Positions 56,875 through 62,929 are shown, counted from the first letter of the stretch. The stretch is 64,000 nucleotides of DNA from the human T2T-CHM13v2.0 reference genome, Homo sapiens (GCF_009914755.1 NC_060925.1); one strand, 5' to 3'. The notes: generated by a model from the letters alone, not told the origin. Numbers and translations: made by a program.

Positions 56875-58859
56875 CTAAATATATTTTTAACCAACCCAGA
56901 AAAAATTAAAAAGTATATCCCAGGTGGCAGGTGAACTAAATACCTGGTTCACTTTATTTAACCTCGGGTTTGTTTTTGTTAGTGTTATGAAGACGTAGCT
57001 CCCCTCCTCCTAAGGCCTCATGCCCTTTTCTGTTAACAGTCCCTTCCAATGGGGCAGCCATGGTCACTATTGCCAGATGCAACTGTTTGAGGGAATGGAG
57101 AGGATTGTAATCTGAGGCTTCTGAAATTGTAAAGTGAAAGAGGAGATCTGGTAAAAGGGGCGAAGATCAGCTGAAGGAAGGTCAGATGTGAGTACAGCAG
57201 CAACGGTTACATTCCCACCCTGGGCTGCAGAGGCAGGTGGGCTGCAGAGGCAGGTGGGCTCCTGGCCTCTCTCTCCAAGTGGAGTGGGAGGCTGAAACCA
57301 TAGCAACACTGAGGTTAGCACACAAGGCAGGTGACATTAAGCAACATCCTCTCCTTCTTCCCTAAACCACAGCAGCCCCTGCGAACCTGTACAGCTCCAT
57401 GAGCCTCCTCCAGCCTTCACTGCTGCCCCAGGCCCCCAGGCCCTTAAGAATTCCTGCTGGAAAAAAGCAGGCCGTGGCACAACTGAGATTTCCTTGTGTC
57501 AGTGTGAAGATGATCCAGCTCTTCTGCATGTTATTGCAGAAATCATAGAGACGAAACAGGATGGGGTGGCCTGGAAGGAGCATGGAAGATGAAGCCGCAG
57601 CTGAGGAAGAAGGCAGCTCTGCTGCTCCACTCTACCCTAGACCAAGAAGGTTCCTCTTTTCTAAATGGGGAAGAAACTCATTTTGACACTCCCTTCCTCC
57701 TATGTTTGAATAAATCAAGAAGCGTATCTGCACTGTGCAGTGAAAGCCACCTGCCTGCCTGGAGAAAGAGAAACTACTGCCCAGCACTCTGAGCTCTTCG
57801 ACCTCTGGACGATGATCATCTCACACCCAAGCAGAAATATCCAGCAGCCCTCTGCTCCCTCCGGGCTGGGTCCTAACCAACTCTGGACTTGCTCAGGTTT
57901 CTCATGCTCCAACCCCTAACCCTGTCTGCAAACACATGCACCATTTCACATCATCCATCAGAACTCTTCGCATGGCCCAGCCTCCACTGCCAGCTGTATA
58001 ATTTTAGTGCTTTAGATAACCTTAGAGGTTATCTACTGAGTCTGTCCACACTTCCGGCAGATTGGAACACTGAGGCCCAGAGGAGCTGAGTGAATTGTCC
58101 CTGTGCACATAACCCCTTGTGGCAGGGGCAGGCCAAGGGCAACCCTCTCTGAATAGTGTGGTCAGTGTTTTTAACACCGAAGCTCTCAAAAGAACTAATG
58201 TTTACTGAGCACCTAGAATGAGGGTGACCATATGTCCTAGATCACCCAAGTCAGTCCCAGGCCACACCTGCCCCCTTTCACACTCAGCTGTCCCAATTTA
58301 GACTATGCATCACGTATGGTCCCTGTACATATGTCTATTGTGTTATGTGTTGAGTGAGATGGAGTCAAGGATGATACTGACCCCTTCTTCTGAGGACTTA
58401 GGACCAACAAGAGACATGTCTACAACAACCGGCCCATTCTTCAGTAAGTCAAAAGAGCCATGGGGAACTTGAGAGTGATAAGGATTAATTCAGACTGGGC
58501 TAGAGAGGTGCCTGTGGTTGAATCCCAGCTCATGTGGACTTTTGACCACATGATCTGGTCCTCAAACCACAGGCAGCAGTTTGACAGTTTGAGAAGGGAG
58601 GAAACTTGTGCCAAGGGTAGCACAAGCAGAAGTAAGTCAGTAGACAGCTGTTTGGTGAAAATTTCCACATTCCAGGTCCTGAGAACACCAAGATGGGTGA
58701 GACACAGGCCCTGGGAGCTCAAGACAGATTTGGGAAGAGTGAGGATTGGGAGCCAGGCACCACTTCTCCAGTCTGAGACCAAGGGGCTGGTTCAGAGCTT
58801 CGGAGAGCAATGCCCAGCTGTAACCTCCCAGATTTTTCCTTGACTGCAGCCCTCATTAG

Positions 58860-59161
58860 TTATTTATTTACTTATTTTTAGAAATAGGTTGTCCCTCTGT
58901 CACCCATTCTGAAATAGTGGTGTGATCATAGCTCACTGCAGCCTCAAACTCCTGGGCTCAGGAGATCCTCCCACTAGCCTCAGGAGTAGCTAGGACTACA
59001 GGTGCATGCCATCACGCATTGCTAATTTTTTTACTTTTTGTAGAGTCGGGTTCTCACTATGATGCTGAGGCTGGCCTCAAACTTGGTCCTCAAGTGAGCC
59101 TCCCACCTTGGCCTTCCAAAGCATTGGGATTACAGCTGTGAGCCATTGCTCCTGGCCTGGT
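58860..59161 (-). mobile_element. AluJ
   Basis: Diverged dimer. Confidence 0.85.
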
Positions 59162-59793
59162 TATGTATTTTTCACTGCCCTGCACCACCTGTGCACACCT
59201 GCATTCCTTACCTGGAAGACCCACCCATGGCATTACAGTTTATAGTGTTCCTAACAAGGCCTACCACAGTGTTTGTACACTGAAAGATCCTGGTGAACAT
59301 TTCTTAGTAAACTACACATATCCATTTGCCAGCCAGTGTATGGTCTCCTGGTTCCCTTATCCCAGGGCATGAGCAATGTGTTGCAGCCTGGGGCTCAGGA
59401 ATGGTGAGCAGGCGTGGGTGGAGAAATTTATAAAGAGGCTGTGGAAAGGGAGAGGGAAAAGACACTAGGGAGGCCAAGGAAGGAGGTGAGCTCTGAGGAG
59501 AACAGGGTACATCTACATATCGAACATCTTACCTCCTGAGACCAGCTGCGCTGCAGACTTGAGCCAGCTCTCACACGCAATAGGTGATTCCGAGGACACA
59601 CGGGAATGCAAGAGGCCCATGACAAGTACAAATAGGGTTCCATTCTGATGTATACACACCCCCACCCTTCTATGTGCAGTTTTTCAGGCCCTTCTGCAAA
59701 GTGCCCATGAGGCTGACCACGCAGGCTTGGAGGGTCAACACGCAGTGCGCGCAGGGAAATGCAGAGCCCAGGCTCTGCGCACTTTCTGGTAGC

Positions 59794-59810
59794 TGCTGCC
59801 CCCTGCTGAC
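59794..59810 (-). promoter_or_regulatory. Candidate CTCF site GTCAGCAGGGGGCAGCA
   Basis: Close match to the CTCF core consensus; motif only. Confidence 0.5.
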
Positions 59811-59959
59811 ACAGCAAGACCTTGACAGCCCAAGAAGGTCATCTCCGCTCTTCCTGCCAGGCAGAGTAGGAGCATCTACAGATGGGTTGATTCCACACCC
59901 CACAAATACGTACAATTACAATATGTCAATTTTAAAAGATGTCTAAAGGCTGGAAGCAT

Positions 59960-60556
59960 AACCAGGCATGGTGGCTCATGCCTGTAATCCCAGCAATTTG
60001 GGAGGCCGAGGTAGGGGGATCGTTTGAGCCCAGGAGTTTAAGACCACCCTGGGCAACACAGGGAAACCCCGCCTCCAAAATAATCCAAAAATTAGCTGGG
60101 CATGGTGGGACACACCTGTAGTCCCAGCTACTTGGTAGGCTGAGGTGGGAGGATCTCTTGAGCCGAGAAGGTCGAGGTTGCAGTGAGCCAAGATCACATC
60201 ACTGCACTCCAGCCTGGGCTAGAACGAGTGTCACAAAAACAAACAAAAAAAAAGGCAAAGAGCAGTGGTTCAAGCCTGTAATCCCAGCACTTTAGGTCAA
60301 GGAGGGAGGACTGCTTAAGTCCAAGAGTTCAAAACCATTTTGGGCAACACTGCAATACATCTCTACAGAGAAAAAAAAAATTAAGTTAAAAATTAGCGGG
60401 GTATGGTGGTGTGCATCTGTGGTCGTAGCTACTAGGGAAGCTGAGACAGAAAGATTGCTCGAGCCCAGGAGTCCCACGCCGCAGTGAGTTATGATTGCAC
60501 CACTGCACTCCAGTCTGAGCAACAGCGCAAAACCCTGTCTCATAATAAAATAAATA
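59960..60556 (+). mobile_element. Two tandem AluJ elements (59960-60253, 60254-60556)
   Basis: Two diverged dimers. Confidence 0.87.
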
Positions 60557-62929
60557 TTAAAAATTAAATTTTTAAAAAGGCAGTGGGGTTGTCATGCTTG
60601 TCAAAAATCATATCCAGATGAGGAGGGAAACACAACCCTTTCATAGAGTCCACTTGCCTAGCGCAAGATGGGATGAAGCCTCCGTGAGTTAAGCACTCCG
60701 AGGCTGTGAAGAGGTGCTAACAGGAATCGCTGCACCTCAGATCCACTGATGTAGCAGCATGCCACACATGCCTCTATGCTCCCATTTTATAGGCGATAAA
60801 ATTGAAGCGTCATGAAATTTGAGAATTCCCATAGAGATGTGATCCTGGGATTGTGCATCACCAGGTCCTGACCTCCAAACTGCTGTACTGATAAACCCAC
60901 CTGATACAGCTGTGGGCTAAGAGAAGGGGCAAGAAGCAAAAGCACATTTCCTGAGCATCTGTTGGTGAGAGCCTGTGTCAGGTGTTGGGTAGACTGAGGC
61001 CCCAGCCCCACACTTGAGGAAGATGAAGATCAGAACAATTCATTACCAACAGGCCAATGTAACATGTAACATGACACAGTACAGGAATGGGGGATGGGGC
61101 CCTATGTCCCCCACACCTTGACCATCTCTTCCTCACCTTAAACAAAATTTCTCGACCCTCTTTGCTGGGAGAAGGAGCTAAGAAACAGTATTCCCACTTC
61201 TCATCTCTTCTTCCCAGCAAAACTTCCTCGGAGATGACTACCTCCACTTCCTCACCTCCTGTTCCTGTGAGCCCAGTGGTTCAAGCGTTTGGACTCTAGA
61301 GTCCAAGTGCCTAGTGGGAGCCGCCTCCGTTACCTTCAGCAAGGCTGAGTACCCCCCATTGTGCCTTATTTTCTTACCGTGGAAAGGAAATCATAGTGTT
61401 TATCTGTCCTATAACATTGTTGTAGAGATTAATTAGGGGCGTTCCTGGTACGTGAAATGCACTGGATGAGTACAAGTTACTACAACGAGGGTGGGAGGGA
61501 GGGAGCTCTTCGGCTTCTGTCTTCTTCTCCTTAGAAGTACCATTGGCTCTAACCTTCCTGGTCTCTCTTCCCGCCTGCCGCATCTTCTAGGTGATTTTGC
61601 AAGGAGAAACGCACGTGCATGGCATAGCCCTTCTTTTCTAGGGCTCTTCTGTACCAGGAGCCTCACAGGTCCTGCCTGCCAGTGACTGGGTAGGGAAGTC
61701 CAGCACTGTGTGTCATCTCAGAAAGCCCTTCATTAGGACTATAATACTGTATTATAGACTGAAAATTTGCTGAGAGTAGATTTTAGGCGGTTTCACAACA
61801 AAAAAGGGGGGAGGTAACTGCAAAATGATAGGCCAATTTGATACCTATTTCATTATGTGCATCAAAATACCATGTTGTTCACCTCCTATACATACAATTT
61901 AAAAAATTTAAAAAGCCCACTCACCCAAAAACATATGCTATGCATTTTCATAGCAGCTTTTCTAGTAATAAAATATTATGACACCCATCTGCCAAGTCAG
62001 GGAAGGCAATCTCAAACTCCTGGACAGCACCCATCCAAAGGCACAGTGAGTGCTCAGCACATAGCGGCCCCAGATGGCCCCTCAGATGGCGTCCACAGCC
62101 ACCAGGGTCACTGCTCTGATTGCGTGCCTCCAATTCTTGGCCTTCACCCTGCCCCTTGACCCCAAGGTTTCTGGTCTTCCTCCCTGCCAGCACCTTCTTC
62201 TTCCCTTGGCTGACCTCTTCTCAACAAAACTCCAAATACTGGTACACTCCAAGTGCAGCTCAGGCTAAACAAAGCCTTTTGCTCTTCTTCAAAGCTCCTG
62301 GAGTTCACATCCCTATCCAATCTCCCACCTGTGAGTTCAAGTGCCCTCAAACCCCTCCCATCCCCCAGCCAGTCAAGCCCTGACTTGGAAGTCACCTTTT
62401 ATCTAGGTTTTAATTTCAGAGAAACAACGGATAATTCATAATGTAAGTACATCCTAAACACTGCAGCAGACAAAAATACTGCCTATCTGAAATTTCAGTG
62501 GGTTCACTGTATTGATAAATCTGGCATCACTACTTGTGTCCCTTCTCTACATTCATGCTCACATCCAGACACATCTAAGATCCCAACCCTCTGGCACTCT
62601 CATCTCTTAGCTCAGACAGAGCCCACTCCACCCCGCAGGCCCCTTTCTACCAAACCCTCTCCTGGCACCCATCACCTCACACAGCATGGCCCCATGAGGC
62701 ACCAACTCCTCCCCTGCTTCTCTACACTTGCCCTGTACATGACCACCCTGGCCATGGGGCCTTCCACCCCCGCAAGAGCATGCATAGCGCAGCTCACTCA
62801 ATCTGGTCCTTCACCTCCCTTCCCTGACCACACCATCTAAAAAGCCTGCCGCCTAACCCTGCTCTTCCCTTGCCCAACCCTTGCCTCATCTTTGCCCCTT
62901 TTCTCTTCCTCCAGCAAGGACAGTAGATG

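What the first reader, a model, noticed from the sequence alone, without database searches (positions are those of the whole stretch)
57362..60958. Three-exon LY6G5/ACRV1/PATE-like pseudogene with a poly(A) signal
Exon A (60958-60901) is 58 nt from ATG to CAG|GTGGGT (phase 1); compensating indels give MLRNVLLLLAPSLxPTAVS. Exon B reads ICTCHGPLAFPCVLGITYCV*ELAQVC with donor AG|GTAAGA at 59532; its C-x6-C-x7-C spacing is that recalled for ACRV1 and LY6G5B/C. Exon C follows the acceptor tttcttccccatttag at 57661 and reads (E)KRNLLGLG*, with TAG (57634-57632) at residue 10 where the GC cysteine belongs. It continues in a shifted frame as VEQQSCLLPQLRLHLPCSFQATPSC, then TGT TT CGT CTC TAT GAT TTC TGC AAT; adding one G gives the hallmark CCRLYDFCN. 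AATAAA lies at 56958-56953. Weak points: the exon B acceptor is ambiguous (59645 or 59694), CxxC appears as CTC, and the exon B donor is phase 2 unless repaired.
Basis: partly seen in the sequence, partly recalled or inferred. Interest (0 to 1): 0.85.

Follow-up and report, generated by a model that had tools for sequence, protein, structure and literature searches.

The report
Dead Ly6-type gene beside LYPD8
A badly decayed, unannotated remnant of a small cysteine-rich Ly6/uPAR-type gene most likely lies between LYPD8 and SH3BP5L on human chromosome 1; it is an ordinary dead gene, of modest interest for how this gene family came and went.

Summary
RefSeq annotates nothing there, and the named pseudogene LYPD9P lies 50 kb beyond the other side of LYPD8.

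No homology search found a match: Pfam, PDB, the protein database, the Atlas, LYPD8 orthologues and own-genome DNA. Pfam and my own HMMs also miss the exons of the real LYPD8, so those two blanks weigh little.

The support comes from exon architecture. Exon B has five in-frame Cys with gaps 1-7-6-7, a phase-1 acceptor, and a consensus donor 20 nt after Cys5. LY6G5B, LY6G5C and PATE1-3 have gaps 2-(7/8)-6-7, and four of these five have the donor at 22 nt. Exon C has a strong acceptor and Tyr-Asp-Phe-Cys-Asn at codon 41 in the acceptor's phase-1 frame.

Each composite occurs once in the window, at the candidate, and 0 times in 217 kb of control DNA. The first-half composite did not occur in 2 x 10 Mb of simulated DNA. 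The second-half composite is expected about 0.013 times per window.

Exon A and the AATAAA carry no weight. No other species could be examined.

Verdict: probably (about 0.7) a real, old Ly6/uPAR-domain pseudogene with at least two stops and three frame breaks.

The parts
59533..59644 (-). Exon B: relic of the first half of an LU domain. It has five Cys codons in one frame at 59630-28, 59624-22, 59600-598, 59579-77 and 59555-53, with gaps 1, 7, 6, 7.
   Evidence: The gaps match LY6G5B, LY6G5C and PATE1-3, which have 2, 7-8, 6, 7. It is the only tight-pattern hit with donor and phase-1 acceptor in the window. There were 0 in 217 kb of controls and 0 in 2 x 10 Mb simulated.
59645..59646 (-). AG acceptor of exon B. 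It is phase 1 relative to the Cys frame, lies 14 nt before Cys1, and has a weak pyrimidine tract.
   Evidence: PATE1 and PATE3 have 17 nt and LY6G5B 23 nt before Cys1.
59527..59532 (-). Donor GTAAGA of exon B, 20 nt after Cys5, phase 2. In the family all 20 inferred donors are phase 1, and the LY6G5/PATE type has the donor at 22 nt.
59571..59573 (-). In-frame TGA between Cys4 and Cys5 of exon B.
57533..57660 (-). Exon C up to Cys10-Asn: relic of the second half of the LU domain. Cys7 is at 57615-13, an extra Cys at 57582-80, and Cys8 at 57558-56, all in a second frame. Y-D-F-C-N at 57547-57533 is in the acceptor's phase-1 frame, with Cys10 as codon 41.
   Evidence: It is the only second-half composite in the window, with 0 in 217 kb of controls and about 0.013 per 64 kb simulated.
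57661..57676 (-). Strong acceptor of exon C (pyrimidine tract plus TAG-type AG).
57632..57634 (-). TAG in the phase-1 frame, 26 nt into exon C and next to the place where Cys6 is expected. The family has Cys6 at 29 nt.
57616..57628 (-). First frame break of exon C. The 13 nt between the 29-nt position and the Cys7 codon are not a multiple of three.
   Evidence: Read.
57539..57555 (-). Second frame break of exon C. There are 17 nt between Cys8 and Cys10, where the family has 15 or 18, and no Cys9 codon as it stands.
   Evidence: Read.
57362..57532 (-). Open continuation of the phase-1 frame after Cys-Asn (56 codons) to TAG 57364-57362. It may be a C-terminal tail, but its nature is not established.
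60901..60958 (-). It is uncertain. It has an in-frame TAG and lies on a pyrimidine-rich run that also looks like an acceptor.
   Evidence: LY6G5B's first coding exon is also 58 nt, but no test separates this from chance.
56953..56958 (-). AATAAA, 404 nt after the frame's stop. It is uncertain and carries no weight.

Best explanation
Window 57.4-59.6 kb, minus strand, holds the decayed remains of a single-domain Ly6/uPAR (LU, three-finger) gene. The domain is split over two exons, as in the family. Its exon architecture is closest to the LY6G5B/LY6G5C/PATE type, not to its neighbour LYPD8.

It cannot make an LU protein. Exon B carries a TGA, has a Cys1-Cys2 gap one residue shorter than any family member examined, and has a donor in the wrong phase. 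Exon C carries a TAG near the Cys6 position, has two frame breaks, and lacks Cys6 and Cys9.

It therefore does nothing as a protein. It records that the LYPD8/LYPD9P neighbourhood at 1q44 once held one more LU gene.

Shown: the motifs, the splice sites, their fit to the family's measured distances, and their rarity in control DNA.

Inferred: homology itself, and the age. Four indels in about 240 nt suggest tens of millions of years, probably before or early in primate history. It is also inferred, not shown, that the ancestral product was a secreted or GPI-anchored three-finger protein.
For: (1) Exon B has five in-frame Cys with gaps 1-7-6-7. LY6G5B, PATE1 and PATE3 have 2-8-6-7. LY6G5C has 2-8-6-7 and PATE2 has 2-7-6-7. 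None of the other 13 first-half exons whose gaps could be read has the 6-7 pair.

(2) The donor GTAAGA lies 20 nt after Cys5. The inferred donors of 20 family exons lie at 16, 22, 28 or 34 nt. They lie at 22 nt in LY6G5B, LY6G5C, LY6G6C, PATE1, PATE3 and PLAUR.

(3) The acceptor of exon B is in phase 1, 14 nt before Cys1.

(4) Exon C has a strong acceptor, and Cys10-Asn at codon 41 in the acceptor's phase-1 frame. For family exons that start 29 nt before Cys6, the Cys6-Cys10 spans put Cys10 at codon 37-42. Y-D-F stands before Cys10. By comparison, LY6G5B has Y-D-Y, LY6G5C L-D-F and PATE3 Y-N-Y.

(5) Scans. The loose 5-Cys pattern plus donor plus phase-1 acceptor gave 3 hits in the window: LYPD8 exon 2, the candidate, and one in a (CA)n array. 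It gave 0 in 200 kb of controls.

The tight pattern alone is expected 0.02-0.045 times per 64 kb. With a donor it occurred 0 times in 2 x 10 Mb simulated and 0 times in 217 kb of real controls.

The second-half composite gave 1 hit in the window (the candidate) and 0 in 217 kb. It is expected 0.013 times per 64 kb.

(6) In my frameshift-tolerant alignment against 39 human LU half-domain exons, exon B scores 2.17, rank 7 of 852 bins. Five of the six bins above it lie in the (CA)n array. Exon C scores 1.77-1.81. Accepted divergent LU exons fall in the same range: LYPD9P 2.24 and 1.88, LYPD8 domain 2 2.83 and 1.74.

(7) Context: same strand as LYPD8, inside an LU neighbourhood (LYPD8, LYPD9P), and unique in the genome. 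Passages of PMC6600238 state the family rules: three exons, phase-1 introns, ten Cys, and Asn after Cys10.
Against: There is no significant residue-level similarity to anything.
- PF00021 over the whole genome gave 51 matches, none on chr1.
- Pfam on the pieces gave 0 families.
- PDB gave no LU hit.
- The protein database gave no candidate for the 89-aa piece.
- The Atlas best score was 0.84 with no family.
- Human LYPD8 and 68 LYPD8-family proteins gave no hit in the locus. None of the 40 best hits outside LYPD8, E up to 0.96, lies there.
- PATE1, PATE3 and LY6G5B first halves rank the locus only 309, 68 and 121 of 3716 bins.

The canonical Cys-x2-Cys is absent. The donor phase is wrong. Cys6 and Cys9 are missing. 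There is an extra Cys.

The reading of exon C needs two frame breaks that happen to compensate.

By the general alignment score alone, exon C is unremarkable (rank 15-19 of 852). At those thresholds, first-half and second-half bin pairs are expected by chance in the window.

The tolerances of my tight scans were set after I had seen the candidate.

The same stretch holds other LU-like Cys motifs in the same frame, which shows how easily such motifs can be read there.

No signal-peptide exon is established. No orthologue and no transcript was seen.
Confidence: 0.72

Rival explanations
1. Chance. Non-coding DNA near SH3BP5L's 3' end, with annotated enhancer-type elements at 54924-56123 and 57737-57946, happens to carry Cys codons and splice-like sites. 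A reader free to choose frames can then assemble these into an LU gene.
For: All homology searches are blank. Five or more Cys per 40 codons is common in the window. A loose second-half pattern occurs 14 times per 400 kb of control strand. Other LU-like motifs occur nearby. The model needs at least six lesions. My tight patterns were defined post hoc.
Against: The exon B composite is expected about 1e-4 to 5e-4 times per window. That is my product of the pattern rate with the donor and acceptor chances. It was seen 0 times in 217 kb of real DNA. An independent exon C composite lies 1.9 kb downstream on the same strand. Both exons point to the same subfamily. The locus is next to LU genes.
Confidence: 0.17
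2. There is a real LU relic, but with a different exon structure from the reader's. For example, the second half could be the frame-1 stretch downstream (Cys-x3-Cys at 57487-57470, then a Cys-Cys...Cys-x-Asn at 57346-57314). Or the locus could be the remains of a multi-domain uPAR-like gene such as LYPD8.
For: LY6E, LY6D and LY6H second halves align best to 57496-57419, with LY6E scoring 44, the top 0.2% of bins. Three adjacent bins at 57151-57600 rank 15, 52 and 19 of 852. This reading needs one stop and no frame break.
Against: The loop between the Cys-x3-Cys and the Cys-Cys would be 43 residues, against 15-18 in the LY6G5/PATE-type exons. No acceptor lies at the family's 24-38 nt before that Cys. 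The nearest good AG is 42 nt away (read). Asn does not directly follow the last Cys. LYPD8 half-domains do not single out the locus.
Confidence: 0.08
3. The splice-like sites belong to an unannotated non-coding transcript or to exons of some other gene, and the LU look is incidental.
For: Strong acceptor and donor consensus sequences are present. RefSeq lists regulatory elements close by.
Against: No transcript is annotated, there is no Rfam family in 54-63 kb, and no ORF has any family match. This does not explain the Cys spacing.
Confidence: 0.03

Closest known systems
LY6G5B / LY6G5C / LY6G6C (6p21.33) and PATE1-3 / ACRV1 (11q24.2): small LU-domain genes
   Same: Cys3-Cys4 gap of 6 and Cys4-Cys5 gap of 7. 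The donor lies about 22 nt after Cys5. The second-half exon starts about 29 nt before Cys6. An aromatic residue stands before Cys10-Asn. The genes are small, with introns of about 1-2 kb.
   Different: No significant residue similarity. The Cys1-Cys2 gap is 1 rather than 2, the donor is in phase 2, Cys6 and Cys9 are missing, and there are two stops and two frame breaks. It lies on another chromosome. ACRV1's first half could not be checked.
LYPD8 (neighbour, window 1-7983, minus strand)
   Same: Same strand and neighbourhood, an LU family member, with phase-1 introns.
   Different: LYPD8 has two LU domains over four exons plus a Ser/Thr-rich tail and hydrophobic end, with gaps 2-6-7-7 and 2-7-6-5. 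No similarity was detected between LYPD8 or its orthologues and the candidate. The candidate is therefore not a recent LYPD8 copy.
LYPD9P (annotated transcribed LU pseudogene, chr1:248135311-248137359, plus strand)
   Same: A dead LU gene in the same neighbourhood. It gets similar scores in my alignment test: 2.24 and 1.88 against 2.17 and 1.8.
   Different: It is a different locus, 50 kb beyond the other side of LYPD8 and on the opposite strand. It is annotated and transcribed, has gaps 2-7-6-6, and its reading frame is far better kept.

Membership tests
Ly6/uPAR (LU, three-finger) domain genes | Ten Cys in the stereotyped order (pairs 1-5, 2-3, 4-6, 7-8, 9-10; passages of PMC6600238) | tested here: inconclusive
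   Eight of ten positions carry Cys codons if exon C is read in two frames. Cys6 and Cys9 are absent and there is one extra Cys. The Cys1-Cys2 gap is 1, whereas Cys1-x2-Cys2 holds in all 20 family exons whose pattern could be read.
Ly6/uPAR (LU, three-finger) domain genes | Asn directly after Cys10 | tested here: met
   TGC AAT at 57538-57533.
Ly6/uPAR (LU, three-finger) domain genes | LU domain split over two exons flanked by phase-1 introns | tested here: inconclusive
   The exon B acceptor is phase 1. The exon C acceptor is phase 1 relative to the Cys10-Asn frame. The exon B donor is phase 2, against phase 1 in all 20 family exons, whose ends I inferred from sequence.
Ly6/uPAR (LU, three-finger) domain genes | Significant match to a family profile (Pfam PF00021) or to a member | tested here: not met
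   The tests lack power: the true LYPD8 exons also fail PF00021 at exon level and fail my HMMs.
Ly6/uPAR (LU, three-finger) domain genes | Signal-peptide exon ending in phase 1 | tested here: inconclusive
   Exon A has the right length (58 nt, as in LY6G5B) and phase. It also has an in-frame TAG and is no rarer than chance. No intact alternative was found in the 2.9 kb upstream.
Ly6/uPAR (LU, three-finger) domain genes | Orthologues with an open LU frame in other species | not testable with these tools
   No mammalian genome DNA is on hand. The one direct protein search was blank, and it only sees proteins of 49-156 aa that share three exact 5-residue words.
LY6G5 / PATE / ACRV1-type architecture | Gaps x6 and x7 between Cys3-Cys4-Cys5 | tested here: met
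   Candidate 6 and 7. LY6G5B, LY6G5C, PATE1, PATE2 and PATE3 have 6 and 7. None of the other 13 family exons whose gaps could be read has this pair.
LY6G5 / PATE / ACRV1-type architecture | Donor 22 nt after Cys5; second-half exon starting 29 nt before Cys6 | tested here: inconclusive
   The donor is at 20 nt. At 29 nt into exon C there is no Cys codon, and TAG lies at 26 nt.
LY6G5 / PATE / ACRV1-type architecture | Cys-Cys, four or five residues, Cys-Asn, with an aromatic residue before Cys10 | tested here: inconclusive
   Y-D-F-C-N is present. Only one Cys of the doublet is present, with a frame break at that spot.

The most novel reading that the evidence does not exclude
This is a unitary pseudogene: the only human trace of an LU gene lineage of LY6G5/PATE-like build that sat beside LYPD8 in the mammalian ancestor. 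On this reading the lineage is still intact in some mammals, perhaps as a secreted gut or sperm three-finger protein, and was lost on the way to humans. It would belong with the mouse chromosome-11 genes that lack a human counterpart: Lypd8l, 1810065E05Rik, Gm12253 and Lypd9 (PMC6842137, Table 2, passages seen).
Probability: 0.35. Interest if true: 0.45.

Novelty: new member of a known kind. Interest (0 to 1): 0.3.

Why it matters
If real, it adds one more dead member to the human Ly6/uPAR family, at a locus where RefSeq shows nothing. It would show that the LYPD8 neighbourhood held an LU gene of a different subtype from LYPD8.

That helps reconstruct the birth and death of this family. Several mouse genes next to Lypd8, active in gut defence or testis, have no human counterpart. 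It also gives a concrete place to look for the functional orthologue in other mammals.

It has no expected function in humans.

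Tried and rejected
Homology routes that gave nothing:
- PF00021 over the whole genome.
- Pfam on candidate pieces.
- PDB with two pieces. The 7 weak hits are FAP1 and haemoglobin chains.
- The protein database with the 89-aa frame-1 piece. No candidate was found, and 4 of untold source were left out.
- The Atlas with the 45-aa piece.
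- Own-genome DNA and protein searches, which found only the locus itself.

The two remaining protein searches fetched LYPD8 and its orthologues (68 proteins in all). tblastn of these against the window found nothing in the locus. LYPD8 half-domains do not single it out.

HMMs that I built from 19 first-half and 20 second-half human LU exons had no power. True LYPD8 exons ranked 42nd and 593rd (split at stops), or 15th and 19th (stops as X), so I dropped them.

Plain Cys density is not unusual.

A loose second-half pattern is common: 14 per 400 kb of control strand.

The idea that the candidate is LYPD9P was rejected by coordinates and strand.

The idea that it is a LYPD8 duplicate was rejected.

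An alternative signal-peptide start at 59875 (55 nt, phase 1, weak donor) was considered and left open.

Literature: no paper holds LYPD8, SH3BP5L and pseudogene together. The searches turned up no description of this locus. I saw passages only of PMC4839075, PMC6600238, PMC6842137, PMC10945560 and PMC12195684, and listings only of the rest. Supplements, which may list human LU pseudogenes or lost mouse genes, were closed. I could not consult GENCODE or Ensembl, so 'unannotated' means RefSeq only.

Full report
WHAT IS THERE.

Exon A runs from ATG 60958 to CAG|GTGGGT, 58 nt. Its ATG frame is closed by a TAG at codon 14.

Exon B (59644-59533) follows an AG. It reads (x)WNPICTCHGPLAFPCVLGITYCV*ELAQVCSAAGLR plus two bases, then GTAAGA.

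Exon C follows the acceptor tttcttccccatttag, which ends at 57661. In the acceptor's phase-1 frame it reads KRNLLGLG then TAG. In a second frame it reads VEQQSCLLPQLRLHLPCSFQATPSC. In the first frame again it reads FRLYDFCNN and stays open to TAG 57364-57362. AATAAA lies at 56958-56953.

No masked repeat of 100 nt or more overlaps the exons. Alu-sized masked blocks lie in the putative first intron at 59956-60586.

RefSeq annotates no gene here. It lists only two regulatory elements nearby, at 54924-56123 and 57737-57946. The named LU pseudogene LYPD9P is a different locus, 50 kb beyond the other side of LYPD8 and on the plus strand. Rfam finds nothing in 54-63 kb, and no long ORF there is informative.

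HOMOLOGY SEARCHES ARE BLANK, BUT SOME LACK POWER.
- PF00021 run over the whole genome gives 51 matches at E up to 10. None is on chromosome 1, so it misses the real LYPD8 as well as the candidate.
- Pfam on three candidate pieces gives nothing.
- On the true LYPD8 exons Pfam gives only a sub-threshold DUF753 match for exon 2 and nothing for exon 3.
- PDB gives no LU hit.
- The protein database has no named protein of 49-156 aa sharing three 5-residue words with the 89-aa frame-1 piece. This argues against an annotated intact orthologue of that size in close primates and says little else.
- The Atlas gives no family.
- The DNA and the pieces are unique in the genome.
- Human LYPD8, its half-domains and 68 LYPD8-family proteins from many mammals do not match the locus. 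The candidate is therefore not a LYPD8 copy.
- HMMs that I built from human LU exons ranked even the true LYPD8 exons poorly, and I discarded them.

A TEST WITH POWER. I aligned 39 human LU half-domain exons, taken from the PF00021 matches, to both strands of the window. The alignment tolerates stops and frame shifts. I averaged the rank-based scores per 150-nt bin.

The true LYPD8 exons come first of 852 bins, at 3.57 for the first-half set and 3.18 for the second-half set. Two other accepted but divergent cases calibrate the scale: LYPD9P scores 2.24 and 1.88, and LYPD8 domain 2 scores 2.83 and 1.74.

The candidate scores 2.17 for exon B, rank 7. Five of the six bins above it lie in a 2-kb degenerate (CA)n array at 4728-6780, which reads as Cys-Val runs. 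It scores 1.77-1.81 for the exon C area, ranks 15-19.

So the candidate looks like a divergent LU gene. At these thresholds, however, chance pairs of bins are expected in a 64-kb window, and this test alone does not decide.

THE ARCHITECTURE DECIDES. I measured the family's exon geometry on the genome itself. Exon ends were inferred from consensus GT or AG at phase-1 positions, because I had exon annotation only for chromosome 1.

First-half exons. Cys1-x2-Cys2 holds in all 20 exons whose pattern could be read. The donor lies 16, 22, 28 or 34 nt after Cys5, always in phase 1.

The gap pair 6 and 7 between Cys3, Cys4 and Cys5 is found only in LY6G5B, LY6G5C, PATE1, PATE2 and PATE3. Four of those five have the donor at 22 nt.

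Exon B has gaps 1-7-6-7, a consensus donor at 20 nt, and a phase-1 acceptor 14 nt before Cys1.

Second-half exons. They start 29 nt before Cys6 in LY6G5B, LY6G5C, LY6G6C, ACRV1, PATE3, LY6H and PSCA. The Cys6-Cys10 spans of the LY6G5/PATE-type exons then put Cys10 at codon 37-42. Of the six LY6G5/PATE-type exons, five have Asp or Asn two places before Cys10 and four have an aromatic residue just before it.

Exon C has a strong acceptor, a TAG 26 nt in, Cys10-Asn at codon 41 in the acceptor's own phase-1 frame, and Tyr-Asp-Phe before it.

I could not check ACRV1's first half.

HOW RARE IS THAT. A loose five-Cys pattern (at most one stop) with a GT[AG]AG donor and a phase-1 AG occurs three times in the window: LYPD8 exon 2, the candidate, and one in the (CA)n array. 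It occurs 0 times in 200 kb of control DNA from chromosome 1.

The tight pattern (gaps 1-2, 7-8, 6, 7) is expected 0.02-0.045 times per 64 kb in 2 x 10 Mb of Markov-simulated DNA. It never occurred there with a donor. It is absent from 217 kb of real control DNA. In window 7001-64000 it occurs once, at the candidate.

Multiplying in the donor and acceptor chances gives roughly 1e-4 to 5e-4 per window. This is my arithmetic.

The second-half composite requires a strong acceptor, in-phase Cys-Asn at codon 35-43, Asp or Asn plus an aromatic residue before it, and a Cys codon 15-23 nt upstream. It is expected 0.013 times per window. It is absent from 217 kb of real DNA and occurs once in the window, 1.9 kb downstream of exon B on the same strand.

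Without the Asp-aromatic condition it is common, at 1.3 per window. A looser version occurs 14 times per 400 kb of control strand.

Caveat: I set the tolerances after seeing the candidate. Even the most lenient product of the two exons stays far below one per window.

WHAT DOES NOT HOLD. Exon A and the AATAAA add nothing. ATG-to-phase-1-GT pairs of this length are expected about twice per 5 kb by my arithmetic. Exon A sits on a pyrimidine run that gives hydrophobic codons in all three frames and itself looks like an acceptor. Its only point of contact is that LY6G5B's first coding exon is also 58 nt.

Pairwise similarity to PATE1, PATE3 and LY6G5B first halves is not significant. The best ranks are 309, 68 and 121 of 3716 bins.

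The stretch downstream holds further LU-like Cys motifs in the same frame. These motifs warn how easily such patterns can be read in this DNA, and they also underlie the second rival explanation.

MECHANISM AND HISTORY. The best reading is a dead single-domain LU gene. As it stands, exon B has one stop, a shortened first loop and a donor in the wrong phase. Exon C has one stop, two frame breaks and no Cys6 or Cys9. If spliced as is, the message would leave the LU frame at the junction (read). No product with a three-finger fold can be made.

Four indels and two stops in about 240 nt, with eight of ten Cys codons kept, fit neutral decay of the order of 10-15%. That corresponds to tens of millions of years. 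This is an inference from general rates, not a measurement.

Passages of PMC6842137 (Table 2), PMC10945560 and PMC12195684 show that mouse has further genes on chromosome 11 with no human counterpart: Lypd8l, 1810065E05Rik, Gm12253 and Lypd9. One is named LYPD8-like. Whether any of them corresponds to this relic could not be tested. Their order relative to Sh3bp5l comes from no call.

COMPARISON AND NOVELTY. In build the relic is closest to LY6G5B/LY6G5C/LY6G6C and PATE1-3. It differs from its neighbour LYPD8, which has two domains and other gaps, and from LYPD9P, which is another locus and better preserved.

As a family member it meets the Asn rule and the subfamily's 6-7 spacing. It fails the profile-match test, which true exons also fail. 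It is inconclusive on the ten-Cys rule, intron phases and signal peptide.

It is best filed as a probable new, unannotated member of a known kind. My searches found no description of it. I could not consult GENCODE, and paper supplements were closed.

VERDICT. I put the probability of a real LU pseudogene at about 0.72, with a further 0.08 for an LU relic of different structure and 0.17 for chance. Interest is modest, at 0.3.

Noticed in passing
window 4728-6780: A degenerate (CA)n/(TG)n array of about 2 kb in the LYPD8 intron. On the minus strand it reads as Cys-Val runs. It produces nearly all the false LU-like hits in Cys-pattern scans.
   Followed up: partly
window 40995-41102, minus strand: tblastn match (E 8e-9, 67% over 36 aa) to the C-terminal end of a partial LYPD8 prediction from Theropithecus gelada (P0004). 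It lies 33 kb upstream of human LYPD8. It looks like a mis-joined exon in that prediction, or a conserved stretch of unknown nature.
   Followed up: no
window 10312-10416, minus strand: Match (E 7e-6, 57% over 35 aa) to the N-terminal extension of the 362-aa Kogia breviceps LYPD8 prediction P0038, just upstream of human LYPD8's first exons.
   Followed up: no
window 56627-56827, plus strand: Weak recurring matches of LYPD8 domain-2 peptides from many species fall inside a masked repeat (56549-56920). They are chance similarity to a repeat translation, not an LU exon.
   Followed up: partly
A 17-nt unit is repeated in tandem at 57259-57226. They do not fit the family's exon distances.
   Followed up: partly
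window 59915-59673, minus strand: In the same frame as exon B but upstream of its acceptor, an 81-codon open stretch holds a Cys-x2-Cys-x6-Cys run. In another frame an ATG at 59875 opens 55 nt to a weak phase-1 GT. It is unclear whether these belong to the relic.
   Followed up: no
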